Origin: a virus
Reading direction: 5' to 3' (one strand)
Virus record (IMG/VR): IMGVR_UViG_3300037042_003896
Span: 35,684-99,683 of that record
DNA: 64,000 nucleotides
Made by a program: the position numbers and the translations under genes. Of the stretch, positions 1 through 62,891 are shown one piece after another. Under the pieces are notes generated by a model. The model worked only from the letters and a program-made list of their open reading frames with translations. It was not told the DNA's origin and made no database searches. Numbering within the stretch: position 1 is the first letter of the stretch; every line of letters begins with the position of its first letter.

Positions 1-3000
1 TCATCAATTTGTGTTGCTAAGATTTCTGCATTGGTATTTCCTCTTCCTATTCTTGGTTTACCACTTTCATCAGATACTATATTTCCTTTTTCTACAATGA
101 TATGGTCTTTGTTTCTTTCCACTTCTAACAATGTTAAAAGAGGAAGTTCCATATCTACAGATGCTTGATATTCATACAATGATTTTATCCATAGTGGCCC
201 CACCATTGTAAGATCTTGTGAGAGTTGATTAACAGCTTTATCTGTTCTTGTAAATAATTTAGGTATCACCCTCTTTATTTGTCCTGTCTCCTTGTCTAAT
301 TTAGAATAAGAATGCTCCTCATTTATCCTTACAGAATACAAATCCTTAAACATATCAGAAGCCTCTTCCAACATATTATCAGAAGCTCTTAACTTTTGAA
401 TCATTGTAGCTTCTATTAAAGCAAAAAATGAAGACTTTCCATAGGACAAATATCCCATTTCAATAGCTTTCTGATTTAACTCTGTAAGAAATTCCCACAT
501 ATCAAGAATAGCTTTATCCTTTGCCATTTCCTTATAGCTCTCTGAAAGATGTTCATCAGCTTTCATTGTTAGGCGATATATCCTGTTGAAAGTACCATTG
601 GTATATCCATTAAAAGCTTTACTTTCAATAGAAAGAGCATTCTTTATTTTCTCTTTTTCATATGTCTTTCTCTCTTCATTATCTCTGTCATCAGAAGAAT
701 AATGTGTGTCTTCAATTATTTCATTCTGTTTTGTAATTACCTCTTGTGCTAATTTCTTATATGCTTCAAGGTTTAAATTTTCAAGGAGGAATGCTTTATT
801 CTTCTCCTGTTGAGCTTTTGAGAGCTCATTTAAAAACTCTTTATCAACCTTTTCATGTAATAAAAATTCATTATCTTTAATTTTTGCTATTAAATTGAAA
901 GCACTTTTTCCTTTTGCCCTGGCTACATTCTCTAAGGCTAACAGTAATGTTCCAAATCTTTTTGTTTCTTTCTCAACAAGAATATTAGTTTCCCCTCTTT
1001 TATTCAGAATATAATTTGTAGCTATGTTTATTATTTTTGAAGAAAGGAGAGAAGCTTCTGATAGCATTCTGTAAAATCCTCCTATTTCTTTCTCTGGTTC
1101 AAGAATATTTAATTTATTTTCTTCATTTGTTATACCTTCAATAAGAGCAAATTGAACAGCATATTCCTTCTGTAAGTCTACAATATCCTCCAACATTACA
1201 TCTGTTGCTCCTGCAATACTTCTTAATGTAGTAAGGATTTCTCTCCCTTTCTCATCAAGTGTATTTTTAGGGTAGTAAGAAAGAAATACCTTATCCAAAG
1301 AAGCAAACTTCTCAGCACTCTTTTTAAATTCAAGAAGTTCAGCTAATTTTTTATTAATATCCTTTTGAGACATAGTAGAATAATCCACATTACTTAATGT
1401 ATCTAACACTTTCTTGGCATTTTTCAGAAATGTTATACCAACATTAGCTAATGGTTCAAAACCCATTTTCATTCTTAACACCCTAATAGCTTTTGAGAGT
1501 TCTGTTAATTGCCCTTTCTTTATATCCTTTTCTAAAGGAGAAACAGGCATCTTTGCAAGCTTCTCATAATACATATCAAGAGATGTAACAAGAGCATCTA
1601 TCTTCTCACTTCCTGTAGATTCTATATCTGTAGGGACAGGAAGTAGGTAAAGATGCGTTTCTTTCATGTTATCCAAATCACCTATTTCAATAGATGTAGC
1701 ATACAACACCTTTTCTTTACTTTTGGTCTTCCTGTATTCATAATTCATTTGGAAAGGAATCATCCTGGCTTTCCTAATCTGTTTAGAGGTAACTCCATAC
1801 TCTCTATCCATTTTAGAATACTCACCCATTTGCGGTTTCCAATCCTTTTGTTTATACCAAGGAACATCTTCTTCATGCTCTTTATTAATATTCATGAATT
1901 TCCAATCAAGAGTATCAATCCTAAAATCTTTTCCATCAGGTGTGGGTTCTATTGCTTTAAAATCCACTGTAGAAGCTAATAGTCCTTTTTCTTTTTCATT
2001 TATCACCTTTAATTCAACAAGAAATCTTGTTCCCTTTGGATAACTTCTTATTAATTCTCTGTTAAATGCTTTGAGTTTATCCGTTATTTCTTCATCCAAA
2101 GGACTATTAATCTTTTCATCCAAGAACACTTCCCTTGCATATCCATCCTTATCAATAAGATTAACAGCTATATCATTCTCAATAAAAGCATGTCCTGCTA
2201 ATCCCCAATCTCTTTTTTGATTATCATCTAATAATTGAGCGGGAGTTCTCTCAGGCATTTTATTACTTGCCTTAGTTTTTTCTGTTACACTTCTTGCTAC
2301 TTCTTTACCATCAAAAGTATAATGTCTTTTTTTAATCACCTTACCTGAACTATCTGTTTCTTCAAGAAAAGGACCACCTATTCTCGCTTCCTTCTCCCTA
2401 TAGATATTATACATCCTATCTACAGCTTCATTCTTTTCTATTTGGTAATATATTCCTTCTTCTTGTTGCTCCTTTGGAGCAGTTGGTTGAAATGATGTTC
2501 TATTTTTCCATATATACCCACCACTTTCTGATTGATTATATCCTTTATCTTTTGAATTTATAATAGGCAGTTGTAATTTATCAGCAATAGCCTGATAAAT
2601 ATATTTAGTTAACCCTTTACCTTGATATTCTTTAGGGAGTCTTATGTTTCCTACTATAATTTCATCATTATTAATGACAATATTCATTTCTCCTAATCCA
2701 GGAGTACCATCTTGACTTGTTATTTCTTTTCCTTTATAAGAAATAATAATATTTTGTACTAACCCAAACTCTCTTTGAATATTTCTTCCAAGTGAAATTG
2801 TTATTCCATTATATTTATTAATATTACCTTCCATTACTCTTTCAGCAGCAACATTAAATATGTCAATGTTTGTTTTCCTATATTGTCCTCTAAACCAATC
2901 AAGAATATTCTCCCACCATTGTTTAACAAGGTTTCTGTTTTGTTCTTCCATTAACTCAGGAAATTCTGTTGTATTTTCATTGTTATTAATAATTAATTCA

Positions 3001-4235
3001 GCAATGAGTTTATCCACTGCTTCTTTTTTTATCTTTCTTATATCAGGTTTACCATCTATTGTTTTATATTTTCCTTTATACGCCTCATACACTTGTTTGT
3101 AAATAGCAAATCTTTCAATTTTACTAATCATTTCTGTCACAAATTTAGGAGATATTTGTTCCAAAATACTTGTAGCAATATGAACCATTTCCTCTGTTAA
3201 GGTTGTATTCTCTCTTCCTTCTGATAGAGCAATTATTCCTTTAACAATATCAGCCAAACCATTAATTCCCTTTGTATTAACATTAGGATTATTTTTTACA
3301 TATTCAGAAAGTGCTTGAATACTAATACCCATTTTAGCACAGGCTTCTTTCACCTTTGCTATTGTATCAGGAGAGGCTATAGAAGCAGGAACATCCTCTG
3401 CTTGATTATAAATGTTATTATCTTCTTGAGAGTATGTTCCTTGATTAAATACAGATTTTATTTGATTAGGGGAAAATACAACATAACTTGTACTACCAGG
3501 GTCTTCTGAAAAATTAATATAAGAATACCCATAATTAGCAATTCCTTTTTTACTTAATAGTTCTTTTACATAACTATTAAAAATTTCTTGAGCATAATCT
3601 AAATAGTATTCTAATCTATTTATTTGTGTTGCAGCATTATAAACAGCAAGACTACTCTTTACTTGTTGAATTACTGGAATTTTTAACCATTCACTACTAG
3701 GTAAAGTTTCATTTGCTTTTCTTATTTCTGCAGTAATTCTATTATACTCATCATCTATTGAATCTACTCCATATATTTCCTTTTCAGTTACTCTTTTATT
3801 TTTAACTAAATCATCTGCTATTTTACCAGCAAAATGCATGTTATCTGTATTAATATCTGTATTACGAGTATTTAAAAACACAGGATGAACATTTGATGAA
3901 CCTCTTTGTGTTGCTGCAGCTTTTGTTCCAAAATGAAAAACAGGTTCTCTTCTAATTTCAAATGTAGTAATAGGACTATCACTACCATGATAAACTAATA
4001 AAGGTTCTCCATTTTCATCTACCACTTTACTTGCATCTGAAGGAGAATTTTCCCAATCACCAAACCATTCTTTAAAAGAAGGAGTGTACACTTGTGCCCA
4101 AAATTTTAGTGCCTCCTCTTTATTTGGCTGAAGAGCAAGAATACTATTATAGAGAAAACTTTCTTTTCCATTAGGAGCATTTACTCTTTCTATTTCTTGT
4201 GTTTCTTTATTCCTGATGATAGAACAATGTGCCAT
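1..4235 (-). CDS. Large virion cargo polyvalent protein, truncated by window start (>1400 aa): ART-PolyVal-like ADP-ribosyltransferase, degenerate zincin, GNAT, PD-(D/E)xK nuclease-like domain, helical region
   Basis: Not in ORF track because it has no stop in the window. Translated by hand from ATG 4235 (TAATG overlap with RNAP stop): MAHCSIIRNK...TPSFKEWFGDW..SKVVDENGEPLLVYHG..FHFGT..SYVVFSPNQIKS; TLTEEMVH; PKEYQGKGL; TVDF..TLDWKF..QMGEY; frame still open at position 3. Confidence 0.85.
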   Translation of the reverse strand, partial: MAHCSIIRNKETQEIERVNAPNGKESFLYNSILALQPNKEEALKFWAQVYTPSFKEWFGDWENSPSDASKVVDENGEPLLVYHGSDSPITTFEIRREPVFHFGTKAAATQRGSSNVHPVFLNTRNTDINTDNMHFAGKIADDLVKNKRVTEKEIYGVDSIDDEYNRITAEIRKANETLPSSEWLKIPVIQQVKSSLAVYNAATQINRLEYYLDYAQEIFNSYVKELLSKKGIANYGYSYINFSEDPGSTSYVVFSPNQIKSVFNQGTYSQEDNNIYNQAEDVPASIASPDTIAKVKEACAKMGISIQALSEYVKNNPNVNTKGINGLADIVKGIIALSEGRENTTLTEEMVHIATSILEQISPKFVTEMISKIERFAIYKQVYEAYKGKYKTIDGKPDIRKIKKEAVDKLIAELIINNNENTTEFPELMEEQNRNLVKQWWENILDWFRGQYRKTNIDIFNVAAERVMEGNINKYNGITISLGRNIQREFGLVQNIIISYKGKEITSQDGTPGLGEMNIVINNDEIIVGNIRLPKEYQGKGLTKYIYQAIADKLQLPIINSKDKGYNQSESGGYIWKNRTSFQPTAPKEQQEEGIYYQIEKNEAVDRMYNIYREKEARIGGPFLEETDSSGKVIKKRHYTFDGKEVARSVTEKTKASNKMPERTPAQLLDDNQKRDWGLAGHAFIENDIAVNLIDKDGYAREVFLDEKINSPLDEEITDKLKAFNRELIRSYPKGTRFLVELKVINEKEKGLLASTVDFKAIEPTPDGKDFRIDTLDWKFMNINKEHEEDVPWYKQKDWKPQMGEYSKMDREYGVTSKQIRKARMIPFQMNYEYRKTKSKEKVLYATSIEIGDLDNMKETHLYLLPVPTDIESTGSEKIDALVTSLDMYYEKLAKMPVSPLEKDIKKGQLTELSKAIRVLRMKMGFEPLANVGITFLKNAKKVLDTLSNVDYSTMSQKDINKKLAELLEFKKSAEKFASLDKVFLSYYPKNTLDEKGREILTTLRSIAGATDVMLEDIVDLQKEYAVQFALIEGITNEENKLNILEPEKEIGGFYRMLSEASLLSSKIINIATNYILNKRGETNILVEKETKRFGTLLLALENVARAKGKSAFNLIAKIKDNEFLLHEKVDKEFLNELSKAQQEKNKAFLLENLNLEAYKKLAQEVITKQNEIIEDTHYSSDDRDNEERKTYEKEKIKNALSIESKAFNGYTNGTFNRIYRLTMKADEHLSESYKEMAKDKAILDMWEFLTELNQKAIEMGYLSYGKSSFFALIEATMIQKLRASDNMLEEASDMFKDLYSVRINEEHSYSKLDKETGQIKRVIPKLFTRTDKAVNQLSQDLTMVGPLWIKSLYEYQASVDMELPLLTLLEVERNKDHIIVEKGNIVSDESGKPRIGRGNTNAEILATQID

Positions 4236-7200
4236 TAGTTACATTTTTTAGATTCTACAGTTTTTTTAGCAATTACATTCTCTATTTCATTTGTATTCCA
4301 ATCATATTTATTAATTAGATAGTCTATTGCTGTTGCATGAGAGGGTTGATTTTCCTTATTAGCTTGTGTATTACCATAATAAATAGGTTTTCCTTTAAAT
4401 TCTCCTGACATTGCTTTTGCTCTCATCCAGACAGCTTGTGGCTCATTACTATTTAAGAAGAAATCAATAAAATCAATTACATTTTCTTTAGTAGTTTTAC
4501 CACTTGTATGAAAAGGATTTTCAAAAGATACTGGCATTTTAGTAGATTTATATGCTACTATAGCCTTTCCCCTCTTTTGTTCATCAGAATAAAGATAAGG
4601 TTTATCAACTATTTTAACATTTTCTGAAACTGTTTTATTCCCTAATTTAGAATATACTTCTTCTGCTACTCCCATACCTATTTGTTTTGGTTTATTTACT
4701 GAATTAGAATTTGATAACACCTTATCCAACTCTTGTCTCCAATTAGGATTAGCCATATTAATTGTAGGAATATTTTTTCTTCTTGCCATTTCTACAGCTT
4801 GTCCTGTACCTCCTTCTGGTCTTATACCTTTTGTTTCCTTAGCATAGAACAATACAAAATCTACAGGAGCATTTAAATTATCACCAAATACCTGATTAGT
4901 ATTTCTTGCCATAAGTTTTAACCCTCCCCCTTTTAAATATTCAGGAGCAGGATGTATTTCTTTAGCTATAGCTTGTTCTTTTGCTCTTGATCCTTGTTTT
5001 TCAGGAGAAAATAAGTTTTTCTTTTTTGTTCCATCATCAAATGCTTTATCAGCTCCTTCTTTTTTACCATAAAAAGTTACACCTGTATTCAATGTATACC
5101 CTTTACTTTCTAACTCGGTAGCTATCTCAGTCATTTGTGATAATACATTTTCAGGAGTTTGTCTGCTTCCTACTCCTGCATATGTCATAGTAGGCGTGTT
5201 GGATTTAGATGGTAATGCATTAAATAAAGGCATTCCTTCATATTGTGGATTTTCCATATTAGTTTTATTTTCATATAAAGGTAAGGATTTATTTGGATTT
5301 TTCCTATCATTCTTAGCAGCATAATCAAGAAACAAATCTATTATATCATGATTATCATGAGGATTGCTTTCCACCTTTATAAATCCATTATCAATAACAG
5401 ATTGTCTATCCTCTGTATAGAATTCGTTTGCTTTGTTTCCATTACCCCAAGCATTTGTTGCTTTGTATACAAAATATTCTGTACCCTTGTAATCCCTATG
5501 TATTAAAGCTGTACCAAAATCATCATACACTTTTTGAAATAGTCCTTTTTGTATATAAGAAAAGTCTCCTATTTTACGCATATAGGCTTTTTTCTTTGCT
5601 ATAGTGGAAAGTCCTTGCTTCTTATCTTTATTTGAAATAGAAATATCTTCCCAAGAATAAACAATAAAATCTGATTTAGCTTCTTTTGTTAATGTGGATT
5701 GTGTAAGCATTTGTGGAATATTTCCTGCTGTTGTAGCTTTCTTTACATTATCAGGAAGGAAAGCCATAGAAGGATTATATTTACCACCCTCTGTTTTGTA
5801 TTTAATATATTTTGCTTTAACGTGTGGAACAACATCATCATTGTTCCAATTGTTTCTTTGAAATACACCTAATTCATAAAACTGTTCCAGATTAGGAATC
5901 TTTTCTAAAGAAGAAAGTGTTTCATTATATATCTCTTCAAAATCTTCAAAAGGAATTACAGATGTAAATGATAACGTAGATTTAGAAAGTCCTGACTGTA
6001 ATACAGCAAGTCTAATAAGTCTGTCATAAAGTTTACTATCCTGGCTTTTTAAATAATCCCTAATCTCTCTGAATGCAAAGATAAGATTATTTTGGTCATA
6101 TACCTTATTCTGTAAACTTTTCACCTTAACATTTGTCACAGAAGCATTTCCTGCTTTATCTGAAGGAACAATTTGCATAAGATTAATAACAACATTATTA
6201 TGTAAAGAATGCCCTTTATGATCTTTTACATGCTGTATAAATGTTCCCACCTCTTTTGCTGCTCCTCCATTCTTAATAAGGAGGTCTGTTATTTCTTCAT
6301 TTAAAGCTGTATCTGTTTGAAGAGCATAATCAAATAAATCATTAACAGCTTTCTGAGCAAGTTTAACAAAATCATTATCATTCATTTGTATATAAGGGGT
6401 AATAACCTTTTCAATAATTCCTCTTACCCTTGGTTGATCTGATTTTAATATTTCTGCTAATGCATCTCTTAATGATTCTATTCTTGTTTTTAATGCCCCA
6501 ATAAATGAATTATCTAACAAGCCATCTACACCACTTATTATATTTCCATCTTTATCAACACTGCTTATAATAGTGCTCTGTGCTTTTTCAAGTTGTTTGA
6601 ATTTTTTGAACACTAAATAAGGATCATTAAATGTAGCTGTATCAAAGTTACTGCCCTGTGTAACCAAGAACATATGTTCAGCCATCTTAGCATATTTCAA
6701 AAACTCATCTAATATAAGCCTTTGATTAACTAATTCACTACTGTTCATATTAGCAACCTTCTTACCTACTAAATTCTTCAATGCACTCTTAGAAGGAATA
6801 GTAAATCCTTCTTTAGGAATTGTAATAGAAGAAGCATATTCACCTTTTACAGCTTTCACATATTTATCAATGAACAACCATGAATATCCTTCACTTTCAA
6901 TTGTTCTTAAATAATCCTGAATAATAGGTTGATTCATAAAGTATGCAACAGTATCTACAGGAACTCCAAGTTTAATAAGAAACAGATATGTGGAAGCAAC
7001 ATTAGGTGTAGCTCCAAGTTCCATAATCCAAGGTCCTTTTGATATATCAACATATCCATCAATAAACTGCCCTATAATATCAGATATATCCTGCCCATCG
7101 GCATTTTCTATCATAGACAATGTAGGAACAACTCTACCATCAACTGTAATTTTATTGTATTTATCAAATTTAATTTCAGCATCCCCTAACCAATGTCCAT

Positions 7201-55552: not shown

Positions 55553-55822
55553 TATTATTATTTATTGTGAATGCTATATTATGCCCTAAATTTTTATATC
55601 CTATATAAAGGACATAAGAATCTTTATCAACAAGGAAGACAATTTATCCTTCATATGCAATAAAAAATTTTAAATGTGAGGACGTTTTTATTCCCTCCCC
55701 CCTTTGAAATTTTAAATTTGAAGCCCCCCTTGTATTTGTGAGAGGAGGTTACTACCAATTTCAACCCCACGCAAAATAAAAATAATTGGGGTTACTCCCG
55801 TCACTAAAAACAACACAACATT

Positions 55823-56224
55823 ATGTTAGCATTTCAAAACTATGTTCGTAGCGAAGGTACGCTACAAGAAATTGGAACAGTAATCAGCCAAATTACAGGC
55901 GGTAAATTACAATTCTGTCCAGGAACCATTGACCGTTATAACAGCGGTACAATTAAGGCAATGTCGATTTTACTATTCAACAAAGCAGGCGAGAGCGTTA
56001 GTGTGCCAATGTCCAAAGCATTAAGCACGCAAGTTGCGAAAGCTCTGCAGGGCGGTATGATGAAGAGCAAGATATTGGCAGCTATTTCAAAGCTGCCAAT
56101 GTACGAAGATGAAGATCTTACCGTAATTGGACGTCCACAGGGTAGCGCAGAAGAAGAGTTGGTTTTGGCTGTTGCTGAAGCCAAGAAACTAACTGTCACT
56201 TATGATGAATTGATAGCATTCTAA
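55823..56224 (+). CDS. Hypothetical early protein (first gene after the strand switch)
   Basis: 133 aa; higher GC than flanks; followed by a terminator. Confidence 0.7.
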   Translation: MLAFQNYVRSEGTLQEIGTVISQITGGKLQFCPGTIDRYNSGTIKAMSILLFNKAGESVSVPMSKALSTQVAKALQGGMMKSKILAAISKLPMYEDEDLTVIGRPQGSAEEELVLAVAEAKKLTVTYDELIAF

Positions 56225-56252
56225 AGAAAAGGGACTTTGTCCCTTTTTCTTT
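56223..56252 (+). terminator. Intrinsic terminator
   Basis: AAAAGGGAC-TTT-GTCCCTTTTT. Confidence 0.7.
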
Positions 56253-56646
56253 CATATATAGGGTGGGATGAAAGAATGTAATGGGTGGGCTAATAAAAAA
56301 CACATTACATTCTTTTATTCTACTCCTTATATATATATATACATATTTTTTTAGTGTTTGATATTAAAATGATATCATAATGATGTCATAATAGGTAGGG
56401 GAATAACCCTCTCCACAATAACAACGCTCTTTGAAACAGAGCGTGTTTGAAAAAAGTTGGAAAGATATAGCATTACAATAAGAAAAGAATTTATTCTTTC
56501 TCTCTCTTGTATAATATATTTATATATTCTTTCCTTAATATAATAATGAAATTTACCGCTTGAAACTCTGAATGTTCCTTGAACAGAGTATAAACAGTTC
56601 TAAATACAAGAGGTGCATGGTAGCTCAAACCTAAAATAATAAGATC

Positions 56647-56886
56647 ATGAAAACAACAACAACCCATAAACTCACACCTTCAATGGCGCAGGAATTTGCT
56701 AATGCTTTTGTAACAGAAGAATATATTGATGGTTGGAAAAGTTCATCATTTATGTATTCTCCATTGGACGATATTAATTATTCTAAAACAATTTCACATG
56801 AAATGTTTGATGAATATAAATTTACCGATGGTAGCTCAATAATGATTGTTCCCGCACAAGTAGGGAGTAGTTGTTATGTTATGTAA
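56647..56886 (+). CDS. Hypothetical early protein
   Basis: 79 aa; A-rich leader. Confidence 0.65.
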   Translation: MKTTTTHKLTPSMAQEFANAFVTEEYIDGWKSSSFMYSPLDDINYSKTISHEMFDEYKFTDGSSIMIVPAQVGSSCYVM

Positions 56887-56956
56887 ACTTCTTGAGTTTC
56901 CCCAATATCCTTAATAGGTGAGGGGAGACTATTTAACAAACTAACTTATAGAAATC

Positions 56957-57951: not shown

Positions 57952-58021
57952 TAAAATATATACAGCCAAATGTCTAAATAATAAGGACATTTGGCTGATT
58001 TAAACTTAAACCCAAAAACAA

Positions 58022-58210
58022 ATGAAAACAGTAATAGCAAATAGTAATACAGGTTCCACGCAAGTGTTGAGCCTAAAGGATTATAGATGTGAAAGTTCAC
58101 GTCTTCCTAAGAAAGAACAATCTCAAGACTTTGATACAAGGTATTGGGAAAGAAAAAGTCACAACGAAAAGAAAATGCTAAAAGCCTATAATAGGCTAAT
58201 AGCATTATAA
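58022..58210 (+). CDS. Hypothetical early protein
   Basis: 62 aa; conserved leader. Confidence 0.6.
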   Translation: MKTVIANSNTGSTQVLSLKDYRCESSRLPKKEQSQDFDTRYWERKSHNEKKMLKAYNRLIAL

Positions 58211-58285
58211 GAAATTTTGGGTTCACCCAATATACACAGACTATGTGTTGAGGGTGAATCTTTTTTAAACTTAAATCAAAAACAA

Positions 58286-58483
58286 ATGAAAACATTAATA
58301 GCAATTCTCTCATTTATATTTATATTTATGGGACTATTTTTCTTATTAAGTCTAATTGGTATAATATGGACAAATTCTTATCGAACTGTACTTGCAGAGC
58401 AAGGTTGGTTCATATTTTACACTATATTTATAGGTTGGTGGTCAGCAGGACTATGTTCACACGAAATATACGAAAAGTTATGA
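58286..58483 (+). CDS. Two-TM membrane protein
   Basis: Likely start MKTLIAILSF; two hydrophobic segments. Confidence 0.6.
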   Translation: MKTLIAILSFIFIFMGLFFLLSLIGIIWTNSYRTVLAEQGWFIFYTIFIGWWSAGLCSHEIYEKL

Positions 58484-58644
58484 TAGAAGAAGAAATCAAT
58501 CATATACATTTCTGTTTAATGGAAGCAGAAAAACATGGATTAATGGCAGAGGTAGTAGCCTCTGCTTTGTTTGCAATAAAAGACGATCCTAAAATTTCCA
58601 TAATTCATGCCATTGATATTGGTATAGATGAATGGATTAAATAA
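58480..58644 (+). CDS. Hypothetical protein
   Basis: Likely start MIEEEINH (ATGA overlap). Confidence 0.55.
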   Translation: MIEEEINHIHFCLMEAEKHGLMAEVVASALFAIKDDPKISIIHAIDIGIDEWIK

Positions 58645-58651
58645 TTATAAG

Positions 58652-58747
58652 ATGAGCAAAGATAGATATGAAGCTTCTGCAGCCTTAACATTTTATGGAA
58701 TGGTTGCAATAATAATTCTTCTCATTGTATTATTAATACTGAAATAA
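58652..58747 (+). CDS. 31-aa single-TM peptide
   Basis: MSKDRYEASAALTFYGMVAIIILLIVLLILK; TAATG-coupled to the next gene. Confidence 0.5.
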   Translation: MSKDRYEASAALTFYGMVAIIILLIVLLILK

Positions 58748-59148
58748 TGAAAAAATTATTGATAATAGCAATGTTTGTTCTCCCGTTAATGGTTGTAGGA
58801 CAAGTAAATAATTACAGAGCCTTTCACGCTACAATTGGAGTGTGGGATGAAAATCGTGAAGAATGGAATTGGGATAATCCTAAAGATATAAATATTGGGA
58901 TTGTTACTAATATTGCGGATCGTTCATATGTAATATATGCAAAAAAGACTATTGCATTAAGCATTATAACGATTGAACAAATTAAAGAAACTGCTAATAC
59001 AGTCAGTTATTTGTTTGAAACTCTTGATCAAAATGGTGTATATGTTGTAGTTACAGAAACCATTCCTAAAATAGAAGGATATGCGTATATAATTACGCTT
59101 ATATATCCTGATTTTGGAATTAGATATGAAGTTGAAACCCTAAAATAA
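58747..59148 (+). CDS. Secreted/periplasmic beta-rich protein
   Basis: Signal peptide MKKLLIIAMFVLPLMVVG followed by Q. Confidence 0.6.
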   Translation: MKKLLIIAMFVLPLMVVGQVNNYRAFHATIGVWDENREEWNWDNPKDINIGIVTNIADRSYVIYAKKTIALSIITIEQIKETANTVSYLFETLDQNGVYVVVTETIPKIEGYAYIITLIYPDFGIRYEVETLK

Positions 59149-59154
59149 TATAAA

Positions 59155-60087
59155 ATGAAAAATTTAATACCGTTTCAAATCCTTGACGAAAAAGGATTAA
59201 CAAGTGTGCATTCAGGTGCAATTAGTAATCTTTGTAATCAACAAGCTCGTGAAATTGACGCTATTATTGCGTCAATTAATAATCATAGTGAGAAATTAAC
59301 TCACAAAGGATCAGATTATAATTTAGTAGATGCATATTTTATGCCTGTTAATATTATAGAATTGATTATTCGTAAAGGAGAATTACATTCTTTACAAGCT
59401 TTCTTAATGGAAGGTGTAAAAGCAAAAGATGCTATGCTGTCTTCATTGAAAAGAGCTCCTTTTGAATATGAAGATAAAGCTCCTGATTATCCTGAAATGG
59501 ACAAATTAATAGAAGGAAAAGAATTTACTGAACAAGATGTACTTGATACATTTAGTAAAGAACAAATTGGTGAATATTTATATAATGAGAGCATTGCTGC
59601 TCACATTGGAAGATTTATTCACGATGGTGGTAAACTTTCTCAATTGAGAAAAGAACTTCCATTAATTCCTCCTACTAAATGGCATTCTATTATTAAGGAT
59701 GAACAAACTCCTGTTAGAGTGACAAAACACCACAGTGCTTCTCAACTTTCAGCATTACATGAAGAATTAGCAGGATTACATAGGAATGCAGAGAAAAGAG
59801 TAAATTATTATAAAGCTCTGATTCTTAATAATGTAGCTGAAATGAATGCAGCTGAAGCTAATCGTGTAGCATTATTAAATTCTGAAATTCAAAAAAGAAA
59901 TCAGAATAAAAATGCAACACATGTAACTAATTGGGATAATTGGTCTACATTTAGACAAATGGCTCAAAATAAGTTTGAGAATGAAAGAGAGCAACAAATT
60001 AAAAAAACTGCTCAATTAAGAATAATGATCCCAGCAGAACTTCAACCTATGGTTGATGAATTCATGGCTAAACTTGAAGATAGATAA
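59155..60087 (+). CDS. Unknown helical/coiled-coil protein upstream of a structured RNA-like element
   Basis: 310 aa; no recognised catalytic motif. Confidence 0.7.
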   Translation: MKNLIPFQILDEKGLTSVHSGAISNLCNQQAREIDAIIASINNHSEKLTHKGSDYNLVDAYFMPVNIIELIIRKGELHSLQAFLMEGVKAKDAMLSSLKRAPFEYEDKAPDYPEMDKLIEGKEFTEQDVLDTFSKEQIGEYLYNESIAAHIGRFIHDGGKLSQLRKELPLIPPTKWHSIIKDEQTPVRVTKHHSASQLSALHEELAGLHRNAEKRVNYYKALILNNVAEMNAAEANRVALLNSEIQKRNQNKNATHVTNWDNWSTFRQMAQNKFENEREQQIKKTAQLRIMIPAELQPMVDEFMAKLEDR

Positions 60088-60098
60088 CATTAATTGGT

Positions 60099-60359
60099 AG
60101 ACAAGAGATAAGCAAACGCTGATTCTCTTGTCTTTTATAGTAAATAATAAGGTCACATAAAAAACAATATCTAAAAAGACAAAATATAAATATAAATTCT
60201 TCTGCTTCTTCACAAAATAATGCCCACGCTTATTCCAGAAATAAATTTCTGGTACAGCAAAAAACAATAGTCGTTGTTTTGGTCTTTGCCTTTGTTGTGA
60301 GGAAGGTCTTTGTTTTTATTTTTGTTTTTATCATTGTCTATATGCCTTATTATTTACTA
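60099..60359 (+). ncRNA. Putative structured non-coding RNA
   Basis: 10-bp hairpin, then a long rod closed by a perfect 15-bp stem with branched apex; G-U pairs favour the plus strand. Confidence 0.6.
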
Positions 60360-60392
60360 ACATTTTTTTAACCTTATAAAACCCAAAAAACA

Positions 60393-60593
60393 ATGAAAAG
60401 ATTACCATTAATTCTCGCAGGAGTAGTAGCAATATGTTTATTTGTATTGTCTCTACCATTTTTAGCAATCCTATATATATTAGGTTGTGATGATGTATTT
60501 AAAAAATATGGAAGAGCTCTCACAAGTATAACATTTAACAAACTAACCTATGAAAAAAGAAATTATGTCTCTAAAGGAATTTCTAAATTTTAG
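60393..60593 (+). CDS. Small membrane protein
   Basis: Hydrophobic N-terminal segment. Confidence 0.5.
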   Translation: MKRLPLILAGVVAICLFVLSLPFLAILYILGCDDVFKKYGRALTSITFNKLTYEKRNYVSKGISKF

Positions 60594-60699
60594 AAAAGAA
60601 GCATTTAAAGCAGAAGAAGAATTTATATGTAAGATTCTTCCTGGAGCATTTTATGAAGTGATAGCAAACGAAGTCTTTTTAACTAAATTAGGATTTTAA
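60550..60699 (+). CDS. 49-aa hypothetical protein
   Basis: MKKEIMSLKEFLNFRK...LTKLGF; ends 2 nt before the next ATG. Confidence 0.5.
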   Translation: MKKEIMSLKEFLNFRKEAFKAEEEFICKILPGAFYEVIANEVFLTKLGF

Positions 60700-60701
60700 C
60701 T

Positions 60702-61154
60702 ATGTATACAACAGCAGAACTTGTATTAGCTAATTATAAACCATTGGTTCTTGAAAAGGGTATGTTATTTATGAATACTATTCATATAGGAACTCCTAAG
60801 GAATGTGTTGAGGTGTGGGCATTAGATAAACTTCCTCAAGATATAGAAACATTTACCATAAAGAATGGATATCCTGTTGAATTTCTAATAATTGATCAAG
60901 AACAGAATATAATGGCTGAACATCATGATATTGGATATTTTGATGAAGGAGATGAACTTGATACTCTTAGAGACATAACATTACGTGATCTAAATGAGAT
61001 TCTTTCTAAATATGGTGGTATGTTAGAAATAGATGCTACAATAGAAGAAAATGAAGTAATTCCTATATTTAGAGAACAAAAAGTTGTTATAAGATTTCCT
61101 GTTGAAGATTATGAGGAATTCTTTGATGATTTTTCAACACTCGAAGAGTTATGA
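60702..61154 (+). CDS. Hypothetical acidic protein
   Basis: 150 aa ORF. Confidence 0.65.
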   Translation: MYTTAELVLANYKPLVLEKGMLFMNTIHIGTPKECVEVWALDKLPQDIETFTIKNGYPVEFLIIDQEQNIMAEHHDIGYFDEGDELDTLRDITLRDLNEILSKYGGMLEIDATIEENEVIPIFREQKVVIRFPVEDYEEFFDDFSTLEEL

Positions 61155-61612
61155 GTATATCCATAATTGGAAAAAATAGTGAGTATGTCTTCAATCGCAG
61201 TTATTGGGATTGGAGACCTATACTCGCTATTTGTGAAAAGGTTATAGAAGATCAAAAGCTTAATTATAACACCGAATATTGGGGATATAATGATGGTGCA
61301 GGTCTTGAAAACCAAGAACAATGTGACAAGTTAGCAAATGGAATGGTAGAATATGTTAAGAATTTAAACTATTCTGATCTTGAACTTGTATATGTAAATT
61401 CTGGAACATGGAGAGATATGTTTAATGATTTTGTTTATGATAATGATATAACAACTAAATTAAACAAGGAATATCCCATAGGACAAGTTTTACTAAATCC
61501 AATTATATGTGAGGATGGAGAAATATATTATCCTTCTCATAAGACTACAATTTTAAATGTAAAACAATTTATTGAATTTCTTCATTATTGTGAAGGATTT
61601 AACATCACTTAA
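61151..61612 (+). CDS. Hypothetical protein
   Basis: 153 aa; W.WRP, NDGAGL, FL..C.GF pattern. Confidence 0.65.
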   Translation: MSISIIGKNSEYVFNRSYWDWRPILAICEKVIEDQKLNYNTEYWGYNDGAGLENQEQCDKLANGMVEYVKNLNYSDLELVYVNSGTWRDMFNDFVYDNDITTKLNKEYPIGQVLLNPIICEDGEIYYPSHKTTILNVKQFIEFLHYCEGFNIT

Positions 61613-61634
61613 AACAAATTCAACTTAAAGCAAA

Positions 61635-62387
61635 ATGAAAAAGAACTCTTGGAAATGGTTAGATGTAAATTCTAAAAAAGGATTTGCAATATTAGCAGGT
61701 ATAAATAGACCAATAAATCCTGCACATGTTAGTAAATTAGCAGAATCTATTCGTGATTTTGGTATGTTTATCAGACCTATATTAGTAGCACATGTAAAAT
61801 TTCTTCCTAGTGGACCAGCTTGGTATATTATTGATGGGCAACATTTGTATATTGCTGCTTTGAGATTAAAACTTGATATTCCATATATAGAAATGGAAGT
61901 AAATTCGTTAGAAGAATTAATTGAACGAATAGCTCAAGTTAATACTACTTCTAAACCTTGGGTATTGGAAGATTATATTACTAGTTGGGGATATTATAAA
62001 CCTTCATATCAAGAATTAAAAAGGTTATATCAATTATATAATATAGAACGATCTATATTAGCAGAACTTTTACATACAGGCATTGTAACAGCAAGTCGTG
62101 CAGGAGGATCATCAATTCCAAAAGTTATAAAGAAAGGACAATTTAAAATCCTTAATTTACAATTAGCTGTAAAAGTGCTGGATTATATTACAGATCTTAG
62201 AGATATTACTAATGATCTTGGTAGACAAGAACAGCGATTGATTATTTCAATCATGATTGAAAAAATTAAAGCTGATGGAGGTTCATATAAACATGAAATA
62301 TATAAAAAATATTTAACTTCTATTAAGAAGGATTTACTTATTGCTTCTAATGATATTGAAACTTTACGTTCACTTTTATCAAAATAA
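61635..62387 (+). CDS. ParB/Srx-like N-terminal domain protein
   Basis: INRPIN..HVSKLAESI..PILV..IIDGQHL. Confidence 0.7.
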   Translation: MKKNSWKWLDVNSKKGFAILAGINRPINPAHVSKLAESIRDFGMFIRPILVAHVKFLPSGPAWYIIDGQHLYIAALRLKLDIPYIEMEVNSLEELIERIAQVNTTSKPWVLEDYITSWGYYKPSYQELKRLYQLYNIERSILAELLHTGIVTASRAGGSSIPKVIKKGQFKILNLQLAVKVLDYITDLRDITNDLGRQEQRLIISIMIEKIKADGGSYKHEIYKKYLTSIKKDLLIASNDIETLRSLLSK

Positions 62388-62453: not shown

Positions 62454-62891
62454 ATGAAAGCAATAGTAATAACAATACTGTTTATTCTTTTTTCTGTAAA
62501 ACATTTAAATGTGCAGGAAATAAAGAAATATGAAAATGTTATATTTTCAGAAAATAATCTCTATGCATATATTATTGCAATGGAGATTAAATACCCAGAA
62601 ATAGTTTTTGCTCAAGCTAAATTAGAATCTTCTCATTTCAAATCTAAGATCTTTAGAGAGAACCATAACCTATTTGGCATGAAACTCCCACGTAAGAGAA
62701 AAACTACTGCTACAGGGGAGAATAGAGGGCATTCTGTGTATTCTAATTGGATGAGTTCTGTTCAGGATTATAAATTATGGCAAGATAGAATAATTCATAA
62801 GCTAAATACAAAGAATAAGTATTATGCATATTTAGGAAAGAATTATGCAGCAGATGAAAATTATGTTAAACTTCTAAAACGAATGAACTAA
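62454..62891 (+). CDS. GH73/glucosaminidase-like peptidoglycan hydrolase with N-terminal anchor
   Basis: AQAKLES, NLFGMK, SVQDY, YAADENY. Confidence 0.75.
   Translation: MKAIVITILFILFSVKHLNVQEIKKYENVIFSENNLYAYIIAMEIKYPEIVFAQAKLESSHFKSKIFRENHNLFGMKLPRKRKTTATGENRGHSVYSNWMSSVQDYKLWQDRIIHKLNTKNKYYAYLGKNYAADENYVKLLKRMN

What the first reader, a model, noticed from the sequence alone, without database searches (positions are those of the whole stretch)
59155..60359. Unknown 310-aa protein followed by a ~260-nt highly structured RNA-like element: candidate protein-ncRNA system
Seen: 11 nt after the stop, hairpin AGACAAGAGA/TCTCTTGTCT (60099-60133) with an inner AGC-AAAC-GCT. Then a rod closed by perfect TAGTAAATAATAAGG/CCTTATTATTTACTA (60138-60152/60345-60359), an A-rich/U-rich imperfect duplex and CTTCTTCACAA/TTGTGAGGAAG (60205-60215/60295-60305). 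The apex has two hairpins (CCAGAAAT/ATTTCTGG and GCAAA..AAACAAT/GTTGTTT..TTTGC). ACGCT and GGTCTTTG each occur twice. The element fills a 305-nt gap in otherwise tightly packed genes and is far larger than a terminator. Inference: an ncRNA partnering the upstream protein as scaffold, guide or antitoxin. Alternatives are a 6S-like RNAP decoy or a sponge RNA.
Basis: partly seen in the sequence, partly recalled or inferred. Interest (0 to 1): 0.8.

Follow-up and report, generated by a model that had tools for sequence, protein, structure and literature searches.

The report
Phage protein with dedicated folded RNA
Directly behind an uncharacterised 310-aa phage gene lies a real, evolutionarily conserved ~270-base folded RNA that follows this gene in every related uncultured phage examined; the pair matches no described protein or RNA family and is probably a new RNA-protein particle of unknown function.

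Summary
The 305-nt gap after ORF 59155-60087 holds a structured RNA on the + strand. It has hairpin P1, closing helix P2 and inner helix P3. P3's 3' strand is flanked by two single-stranded tracts of 6-nt-phased N3-U-N-G units.

Across 46 homologous phage loci, 30 of 31 base pairs show compensatory changes (90.7% paired, against 45-59% in slid controls). G-U outnumbers A-C 139 to 47.

All 79 homologous protein loci with enough downstream DNA carry the RNA on the same strand. All 35 RNA hits found independently have the protein gene upstream. No other gene is linked.

The protein family has at least 854 clusters at 50% identity. It has no Pfam, PHROG, NCBIfam, PADLOC, PDB or fold match. It is absent from 50,697 isolate phage genomes.

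Loci often sit in phage tRNA arrays beside RNA-repair genes. A 98-99.5% identical phage genome lacks exactly this cassette, so it is dispensable.

The window's A/U rod, the ACGCT repeats and the 6S-like reading are not conserved. Function is untested, and a dedicated RNP is the best reading.

This scan found the same module eight times before in other genomes.

The parts
59155..60087 (+). Gene of the 310-aa partner protein (family of ~300-330 aa proteins, mostly helical with two beta-hairpins, no known domain)
   Evidence: It has 125+ homologues at about 35-45% identity and at least 854 clusters at 50% identity. The AF2 model has pLDDT 85.6. There is no Pfam, PHROG, NCBIfam, PADLOC or PDB match.
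60091..60098 (+). 5' flank with the invariant GGU (60096-60098). It is a possible 5' strand of a terminal helix P0 pairing with the AC(Y) tail.
   Evidence: G, G and U are invariant or nearly so in alignment A2. P0 pairing is long in some loci (L018, L023, L081). It is not distinguishable from chance overall (own 7.13 vs swapped 7.0 of 12).
60099..60133 (+). Hairpin P1 with the conserved apical motif (A)UAAGC-ANAA-GCYGAU
   Evidence: Outer and inner stems covary (for example AGC/GCY, GUC/GAC, GGU/ACC). The outer 3-bp and inner 2-bp segments are 97-98% paired; the middle stem segment is 78%.
60134..60137 (+). Junction UUUA (family consensus CUUUAUG) between P1 and P2
   Evidence: T47-T49 are invariant or nearly invariant in A2.
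60138..60152 (+). P2, 5' strand of the long-range closing helix
   Evidence: All 12 scored pairs have compensatory changes, and 86-92% of cells are paired.
60153..60204 (+). Variable A-rich segment (in this copy it pairs with the U-rich 3' tract; not conserved)
60205..60215 (+). P3, 5' strand (family consensus CUUCCUUUACAAA, preceded by a conserved CGC)
   Evidence: Eight of 9 pairs have compensatory changes, and 94% of cells are paired.
60216..60269 (+). Apical domain of this copy (hairpin 60235-60252 and others). It replaces the ACUGAGAUAGAACUCA / GUUAGAC...GGCUAAC domain of most relatives.
60270..60294 (+). Hexamer tract 1 (GUCGUUG UUUUGG UCUUUG CCUUUG), phased N3-U-N-G units
   Evidence: It is strongly conserved in sequence. 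Lag-3 autocorrelation of conservation is -0.16 and lag-6 is +0.15, so the pattern is not codon-like.
60295..60305 (+). P3, 3' strand (UUGUGAGGAAG)
60306..60344 (+). Hexamer tract 2 (GUCUUUG UUUUUA UUUUUG UUUUUA UCAUUG) followed by the conserved UCUAUAUG
   Evidence: Entropy is lowest at unit positions 4 (U) and 6 (G). A relative carries A>G at 60330, which restores the unit's G.
60345..60359 (+). P2, 3' strand. It marks the end of the conserved RNA and the right junction of the presence/absence polymorphism.
60360..60369 (+). Tail AC + U-run (family: AC, then context-specific sequence)
   Evidence: Homology between near-identical modules in different contexts ends 0-25 nt after P2'.

Best explanation
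This is a compact two-part phage cassette. It consists of the gene for a ~300-aa helical protein and, starting about 10 nt after its stop codon, a ~270-nt structured RNA.

Shown here:
- The RNA has three covarying helices: P1, P2 and P3.
- Two conserved single-stranded tracts of 6-nt-phased N3-U-N-G units flank the 3' strand of P3.
- Structure conservation acts on the strand of the gene.
- Gene and RNA are inherited together, and only together.
- The cassette is dispensable and sits in many genomic contexts, often phage tRNA arrays next to RNA end-healing genes.

Inferred:
- The two parts are co-transcribed. No room for a promoter was seen between them, and where a terminator exists it lies after the RNA.
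- The protein binds its own 3' RNA to form a dedicated ribonucleoprotein.
- The helices act as scaffold, and the phased U-N-G units are docking sites for repeated protein contacts, possibly through its two beta-hairpins.
- The particle serves an accessory function in RNA-centred host takeover or in conflict with host or rival phages.
For: RNA reality and strand:
- 90.7% of cells are paired, against 70.5% in shuffles and 45-59% in slid controls.
- 30 of 31 pairs have double changes. The covariation score is 0.72 vs 0.31, with 0 of 500 shuffles reaching it.
- G-U outnumbers A-C 139 to 47.
- Conservation shows no codon periodicity.

Linkage:
- 79 of 81 protein loci have the RNA downstream on the same strand. 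The other two run off their contig.
- 72 are adjacent, and 7 have a small ORF inserted.
- 35 of 35 strong RNA hits from a protein-blind pattern scan have the protein upstream.
- Distant relatives at 24-29% identity (L097, L100, L208) still carry a recognisable RNA with P1, P2, P3 and UCUUUG tracts.
- No other gene family occurs in more than 15 of 63 distinct loci.

Transcription unit:
- A separate intrinsic terminator lies 13-37 nt after the RNA in 16 of 46 loci. In the others the next gene or a tRNA follows.

Cassette behaviour:
- Contig L210 and contigs of runs X6 and X7 are 98-99.5% identical in the flanks. They join 59177-59179 to 60359.
- Near-identical modules occur in at least 11 contexts, with homology ending less than 30 nt from both ends.

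Context:
- 55 of 80 loci have a tRNA within 3 kb.
- Neighbours include a tmRNA, a TROVE protein, and a metallophosphoesterase plus P-loop kinase.
Against: - No expression data exist. No RNA run holds this phage, so the transcript, its ends and any processing are inferred.
- No binding evidence exists.
- The protein is mildly acidic (median pI 6.2), which is unusual for an RNA binder.
- It shows no recognisable RNA-binding fold.
- Co-inheritance would also arise if the RNA only regulated or stabilised the mRNA in cis, or if the RNA acted on a host factor.
- The window's own phage has no tRNA gene, so the tRNA link is a tendency and not a rule.
Confidence: 0.55

Rival explanations
1. Sponge or decoy RNA. 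The phased U-N-G tracts titrate a host RNA-binding protein or RNase. The phage protein is a functionally linked helper (for example in processing or stabilisation) and not the stoichiometric partner.
For: There are multiple conserved single-stranded repeat units on a stable scaffold. The protein is acidic. The cassette shows accessory, dispensable behaviour typical of host-takeover or anti-defence genes. It sits among tRNA and RNA-repair genes.
Against: A pure sponge would not need an exclusively co-inherited 300-aa protein across 24-100% identity. No host factor with this specificity was identified. My recollection that UCUUUGA resembles rrn boxA of some bacteria is from memory only and could not be tested.
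Confidence: 0.15
2. Cis-acting 3' UTR. The structure stabilises, terminates, insulates or autoregulates the mRNA of the upstream gene and has no trans function.
For: It always lies within the same transcription unit, immediately after the stop codon. The possible P0 strand abuts the stop codon.
Against: It is about 270 nt, with three covarying helices plus roughly 90 nt of near-invariant single-stranded sequence. That is far more than stabilisers or terminators need. A separate canonical terminator follows it in 16 of 46 loci. In 7 or more loci another ORF separates gene and RNA, yet the RNA is kept.
Confidence: 0.12
3. RNA-guided nucleic-acid recognition with a non-contiguous code. It would be analogous to VIPR or Cas7 backbones, with the variable positions of each hexamer reading a target.
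For: It has 6-nt phasing with conserved and variable positions, a structured non-repeat part, a phage origin and one small partner protein. VIPR shows that such logic exists in phages (bioRxiv 10.64898/2026.04.26.720920).
Against: Variable positions are not hypervariable among close relatives. There is one RNA per locus, not arrays. The units are hexamers with U-N-G, not YNNGG pentamers. The model of the protein is helical with two hairpins and gave no RAMP hit.
Confidence: 0.08
4. Toxin-antitoxin or abortive-infection pair, in which the RNA neutralises the protein (type III-like).
For: It is a protein plus a repeat-bearing RNA in one small, mobile, dispensable cassette.
Against: The RNA lies after the gene, not before it. 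The repeats are 6 nt inside a large scaffold, not about 36-nt tandem units. There is no PADLOC or Pfam match. It is found almost only in lytic-looking uncultured phages.
Confidence: 0.05
5. DNA-level element (origin, packaging or recombination site) rather than an RNA.
For: Both strands of the window's copy fold well. The right junction of the indel coincides with the end of P2'.
Against: The strand asymmetry of wobble pairs (139 G-U vs 47 A-C) fits a single-stranded transcript of the + strand. Cassette breakpoints fit shuffling at promoter and terminator sequences. The long perfect palindrome is not conserved.
Confidence: 0.03

Closest known systems
VIPR systems (Vipr RAMP protein + vrRNA; bioRxiv 10.64898/2026.04.26.720920)
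   Same: Both are phage-encoded minimal loci with one small protein and a non-coding RNA. The RNA combines short phased repeats, with conserved and variable positions, and a structured non-repeat part. Both are accessory.
   Different: - vrRNAs are ~100 nt, with 9-16 YNNGG pentamers and hypervariable NN, often in arrays.
- Here there is one ~270-350-nt RNA, with hexamers (N3-U-N-G) in two tracts around a helix.
- Its positions are not hypervariable.
- The predicted protein is helical and is not a recognisable RRM/RAMP.
ROOL (RF03087) and GOLLD (RF01998) large ornate RNAs
   Same: Both are large, highly structured RNAs of phages and prophages, often near tRNA genes, with unknown function.
   Different: There is no Rfam match. 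This RNA is smaller. ROOL and GOLLD have no dedicated partner gene and form RNA-only assemblies (PMC12286853). This RNA is strictly tied to one protein gene.
TnpB/omega-RNA (OMEGA) architecture
   Same: In both, the partner RNA is encoded at the 3' end of the protein's own transcription unit. The conserved scaffold ends at the boundary of the mobile or dispensable unit, followed by context-specific sequence.
   Different: There is no RuvC or any nuclease motif or Pfam hit. There are no transposon ends and no invariant Asp. Cassette breakpoints look like regulatory-sequence shuffling.
CsrB/RsmZ-type protein-sponge RNAs and 6S RNA
   Same: They also have repeated short single-stranded motifs on a structured scaffold (Csr). 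6S RNA has a rod-like fold, which the window's copy also shows.
   Different: The motif here is U-N-G in linear tracts, not GGA in hairpin loops. There is no Rfam 6S match, and the rod is not conserved. Those RNAs have no co-encoded dedicated protein.
Ro60 (TROVE)/Y RNA and SmpB/tmRNA modules of phage tRNA islands
   Same: These are RNA-protein pairs encoded among phage tRNA and RNA-repair genes. A TROVE gene and a tmRNA are direct neighbours in L030 and L053.
   Different: The partner protein has no TROVE or SmpB domain. The RNA has no tRNA-like domain (ARAGORN and Rfam).

Membership tests
VIPR | Partner protein is a RAMP (RRM core, G-loop, thumb) | tested here: inconclusive
   The AF2 model (pLDDT 85.6) has 8 helices and only two beta-hairpins. 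No Cas5, Cas6 or Cas7 chain appears among the Foldseek or VIA matches. Absence from a list does not exclude the fold.
VIPR | RNA made of 9-16 tandem YNNGG pentamers | tested here: not met
   The units are 6 nt with conserved U at position 4 and G at position 6. They form two tracts of about 3-4 and 5-6 units.
VIPR | Variable repeat positions hypervariable among close relatives (programmable) | tested here: not met
   Within one clade of 12 loci, the variable positions of the units are largely unchanged. Substitutions are scattered.
6S RNA | Match to the Rfam 6S models; conserved rod with a central bubble | tested here: not met
   There is no hit even at E<=10. Pairing of the A-rich strand with the U-rich strand does not co-evolve.
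ROOL / GOLLD / other Rfam RNA families | Score at or above the family's gathering threshold | tested here: not met
   The scans covered window 58000-62000, 20 homologous loci and L014 (4227 models). Only tRNAs and one tmRNA were found, and they lie outside the element.
TnpB/IscB OMEGA | RuvC (and HNH) nuclease domain in the protein | tested here: not met
   There is no Pfam or NCBIfam hit for 16 family members, including distant ones. There is no invariant Asp in alignment A1.
IS110/IS1111 bridge or seek RNA | DEDD_Tnp_IS110 and Transposase_20 domains | tested here: not met
   There are no Pfam hits.
Type III toxin-antitoxin (ToxIN-like) | Tandem ~36-nt RNA repeats upstream of an endoRNase toxin gene | tested here: not met
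   The RNA lies downstream. There are no long tandem repeats. There is no PADLOC hit.
Ro60/Y RNA | TROVE-domain partner protein | tested here: not met
   The family has no Pfam TROVE hit. A TROVE gene is a neighbour only in L030.
Group I / II intron | Rfam intron core; exon-intron boundaries U...G or GUGYG...AY | tested here: not met
   There is no Rfam hit. The junction bases at 59177-59180 and 60358-60360 are A/A/U. No structured RNA lies upstream of the ORF (6-nt gap).
Intrinsic terminator | Compact GC-rich hairpin directly followed by a U-tract | tested here: not met
   No terminator-like site is called in the element. A separate canonical terminator lies 13-37 nt downstream in 16 of 46 loci.

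The most novel reading that the evidence does not exclude
This would be a new class of phage ribonucleoprotein. A non-RAMP helical protein, possibly using its two beta-hairpins, docks in 6-nt register along U-N-G hexamer tracts displayed by a three-helix scaffold RNA. It would be a convergent counterpart of Cas7/crRNA and Vipr/vrRNA backbones. Aquatic phages would carry it as a shuffled accessory cassette for host RNA takeover or for conflict with host or rival phages.
Probability: 0.3. Interest if true: 0.9.

Novelty: categorically new. Interest (0 to 1): 0.8.

Why it matters
If the pair is a particle, it adds a widespread protein-RNA machine to phage biology. The family has at least 854 protein clusters at 50% identity and spans crAss-like to huge phages. 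Neither component resembles anything described.

Its position among phage tRNAs, tmRNA, Ro-like and RNA end-healing genes points to an unexplored layer of RNA-level host takeover or counter-defence.

The strict 6-nt phasing offers a second, independent example of phased-repeat RNA recognition besides CRISPR and VIPR. The RNA has rich covariation and is about 270-350 nt, which makes it an attractive target for structure determination.

The family is invisible in isolate phage genomes, so it also illustrates what culture-based phage biology misses.

Tried and rejected
Contexts came from the search for related loci and the DNA search instead.
- A single-protein scan of viral contigs found nothing; the alignment was needed.
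- No RNA holder was listed for this phage, so there is no expression evidence either way.
- There was no DNA or protein match in 50,697 isolate phage records.
- The loose pattern CTTTGNCNTTG...GGTCTTTG returned about 82 non-specific hits among 120. nhmmer separated the 35 true ones.
- The terminal helix P0 (GGU flank with AC tail) is convincing in some loci. It is statistically indistinguishable from AT-rich chance pairing.
- Pairing of the variable 5' segment with hexamer tract 2, the window's 'rod', does not co-evolve.
- A minus-strand or plus-strand small ORF was rejected. Open frames on the minus strand follow from the T/G-rich composition, and conservation has no 3-nt periodicity.
- The intron reading was rejected on junction bases and the lack of upstream RNA.
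- A self-mobile IS-like reading is not supported. Breakpoints sit next to promoter -10-like and terminator sequences. The empty variant keeps the first 23-25 nt of the ORF, so it looks like a loss.
- Similarity of UCUUUGA to rrn boxA is my recollection only. Two literature searches by motif gave nothing relevant.
- The catalogue of 10,006 viral candidate RNAs (PMC10690425) could contain fragments of this RNA. Its tables are not held.
- Alignment A3 of distant proteins was too diverse for a locus search.
- ESM Atlas gave no usable hit.

Full report
**Setting.** The window is the last 64 kb of a 99,683-nt IMG/VR virus record. It carries terminase, portal and major head genes on the minus strand and a block of small plus-strand genes from about 55.8 kb. 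The finding lies in that block. ORF 59155-60087 (310 aa) is followed by a 305-nt gap before the next ORF at 60393.

**Observation.**
- The gap folds at -76 kcal/mol, z = -7.6 on the + strand and -5.8 on the - strand.
- Rfam has no match, even at E<=10.

**The protein.**
- There is no Pfam, PHROG, NCBIfam or PADLOC match.
- A word-indexed search found 125 relatives of 300-330 aa at about 35-45% identity.
- A profile search of 1.84 billion representatives found 854 clusters at E<=1e-3 and 607 at E<=1e-10.
- Distant members are also unannotated.
- AlphaFold2 with the family alignment gives a confident model (pLDDT 85.6). Its order is helix, beta-hairpin, long helix, linker, two helices, beta-hairpin, very long helix, two helices.
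- Foldseek against PDB finds nothing (best E = 0.09).
- The wide VIA search gives only generic helical-bundle matches with Z<=8.8.
- BFVD returns only a family member from an uncultured phage.
- The PDB sequence-profile search and the ESM Atlas give nothing.
- Invariant residues include five His, two Glu, Cys27, Arg165, Arg210, Tyr218, Lys220 and several Asn, and no Asp.
- Median pI is 6.2.

**The RNA is conserved.** I fetched 80 viral loci encoding relatives. The sequence after the stop codon shows the same plan in nearly all of them:
- GGU, then a hairpin whose stems differ in sequence but keep pairing, with an apical motif (A)UAAGC-ANAA-GCYGAU;
- CUUUAUG, then a 13-15-bp helix whose partner lies 230-340 nt downstream;
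- AC plus context-specific sequence.

A 46-sequence alignment (A2) adds a third helix (CUUCCUUUAC / GUAAAGGAAG). It also shows a strongly conserved 3' half: GAGACUUAGUUUUUGUCUUUGCCUUUG - P3' - GUCUUUGACUUUGAUUUUGnnUUUGAC..GUCUAUAUG.

**Covariation and strand.**
- RNAalifold predicts 32 pairs, and 30 have compensatory changes.
- On the named structure, 90.7% of cells pair, against 70.5% in column shuffles and 45-59% when partners are slid.
- The covariation score is 0.72 vs 0.31, with 0 of 500 shuffles reaching it.
- G-U pairs outnumber A-C 139 to 47. The constraint therefore acts on a single strand with the sense of the gene.
- Conservation in the repeat region has no 3-nt periodicity. Within each 6-nt unit, position 4 (U) and position 6 (G) are the conserved ones.

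**What is peculiar to the window's copy.** The long A/U-rich duplex, its two apical hairpins and ACGCT are not family features. The 5' variable segment does not co-evolve with tract 2. Most relatives instead have an ACUGAGAUAGAACUCA hairpin and a GUUAGAC...GGCUAAC helix.

**Linkage.**
- An nhmmer profile of the RNA's 3' half finds it downstream, on the same strand, in 79 of 81 protein loci. The other two contigs end too early.
- 72 are adjacent. Seven have a small ORF in between.
- A protein-blind pattern scan of IMG/VR gave 120 loci. The 35 with a strong RNA hit all have the protein gene upstream.
- Distant relatives at 24-29% identity (L097, L100, L208) and four MAG contigs keep a recognisable RNA.
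- No other gene family is shared by more than 15 of 63 distinct loci.

**Context.**
- 55 of 80 loci have at least one tRNA gene within 3 kb, and 42 have three or more. These genes lie on the same strand, on either side.
- Neighbours include a tmRNA (L053), a TROVE/Ro-like gene directly after the RNA (L030), a metallophosphoesterase followed by a P-loop kinase (about 19 and 10 loci), and HNH and GIY-YIG endonucleases.
- The window's own genome has no tRNA.
- The family is absent from 50,697 isolate phage genomes. Among 185,579 species genomes it occurs only on six MAG contigs.

**Cassette behaviour.**
- Contigs from four DNA runs were laid on the region. Two runs from different studies have contigs that join 59177 to 60359, skipping 1,181 nt. 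A third carries the module with 12 SNPs.
- A 99,119-nt IMG/VR contig (L210) is 98.2-99.5% identical on both sides and lacks the same segment, with a 2-nt AA overlap.
- The left junction lies 23-25 nt inside the ORF. Its first 10 nt match the family's usual start. The right junction is the last base of P2'. This is most simply a loss.
- Among 165 pairs of loci with RNA at least 85% identical, homology stops less than 30 nt upstream of the ATG in 98 pairs. It stops less than 30 nt after P2' in 77 pairs. Otherwise it runs on for at least 145 nt.
- One clade occupies at least 11 contexts. Left breakpoints lie just after promoter -10-like TATATT sequences, and right breakpoints lie before a terminator.
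- A separate canonical terminator lies 13-37 nt after the RNA in 16 of 46 loci.
- The cassette is thus a self-contained, dispensable, shuffled transcription unit. Self-mobility is not shown.

**Comparison with known systems.** Earlier reports of this scan on eight other genomes describe the same module and point to VIPR. I read that preprint. Vipr is a RAMP, and vrRNAs are ~100-nt arrays of YNNGG pentamers with hypervariable NN that read DNA by a gapped code. Here the units are hexamers, the variable positions are stable within a clade, there is one large RNA per locus, and the protein model is helical. The resemblance is one of logic and not of membership. ROOL/GOLLD, 6S, OMEGA, IS110, type III TA, Ro/Y RNA and introns each fail at least one defining feature (see Membership tests).

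**Interpretation.** The reality of the RNA and its exclusive partnership with the gene are well supported. The rest is inference: that the two form a particle, that the phased U-N-G units are docking sites, and that the function concerns RNA-level takeover or conflict. I put 0.55 on the dedicated-RNP reading. The rivals are a sponge or decoy, a cis 3' UTR, a guide system, a toxin-antitoxin pair and a DNA element.

Noticed in passing
window 55770-56892 vs L210 (reverse strand) 2782-4931: The near-identical relative without the cassette also differs in a second early-region block. That block is 1,122 nt in the window and 2,149 nt in L210, with only about 280 nt alignable at 96%. This early region is a hotspot of cassette exchange.
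   Followed up: partly
L030 4324-5904; L018 is similar: A 526-aa TROVE (Ro60-like) gene starts about 30 nt after the RNA in one lineage. Y RNAs would be expected nearby. Whether the Ro-like protein also uses this RNA is unknown.
   Followed up: no
L011 4283-4981 and 5181-5564; L002 3282-4022: A calcineurin-like metallophosphoesterase, followed by an AAA_33 P-loop kinase, lies directly downstream of the module in about 19 and 10 of 63 distinct loci. This pair resembles a split RNA end-healing (Pnkp-like) unit.
   Followed up: partly
L053 2415-2857: A phage-encoded tmRNA (Rfam 91.9 bits) lies immediately upstream of the partner-protein gene.
   Followed up: no
L026, L031, L032, L039, L042, L073, L208/L209: In these loci a small ORF of about 70-250 aa is inserted between the protein gene and the RNA without disturbing either. 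The inserted genes were not characterised.
   Followed up: no
window 60330: Relatives in run X2 carry A>G here (three contigs). This turns the unit UUUUUA into the consensus UUUUUG, so the purine at unit position 6 toggles in nature.
   Followed up: partly
window 61635-62387 and 62454-62891: A ParB-like protein (PHROG 12305, E = 7e-13) and a glucosaminidase-type endolysin (PF01832) lie a little downstream of the cassette on the same strand.
   Followed up: no
L041, L028, L007 about 30-70 nt upstream of the ATG; L014-type loci after the terminator: A repeated promoter-like sequence TTTGGAT-17 nt-TATATT flanks the cassette and neighbouring small genes in one clade. It is a likely substrate for the modular shuffling.
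   Followed up: partly
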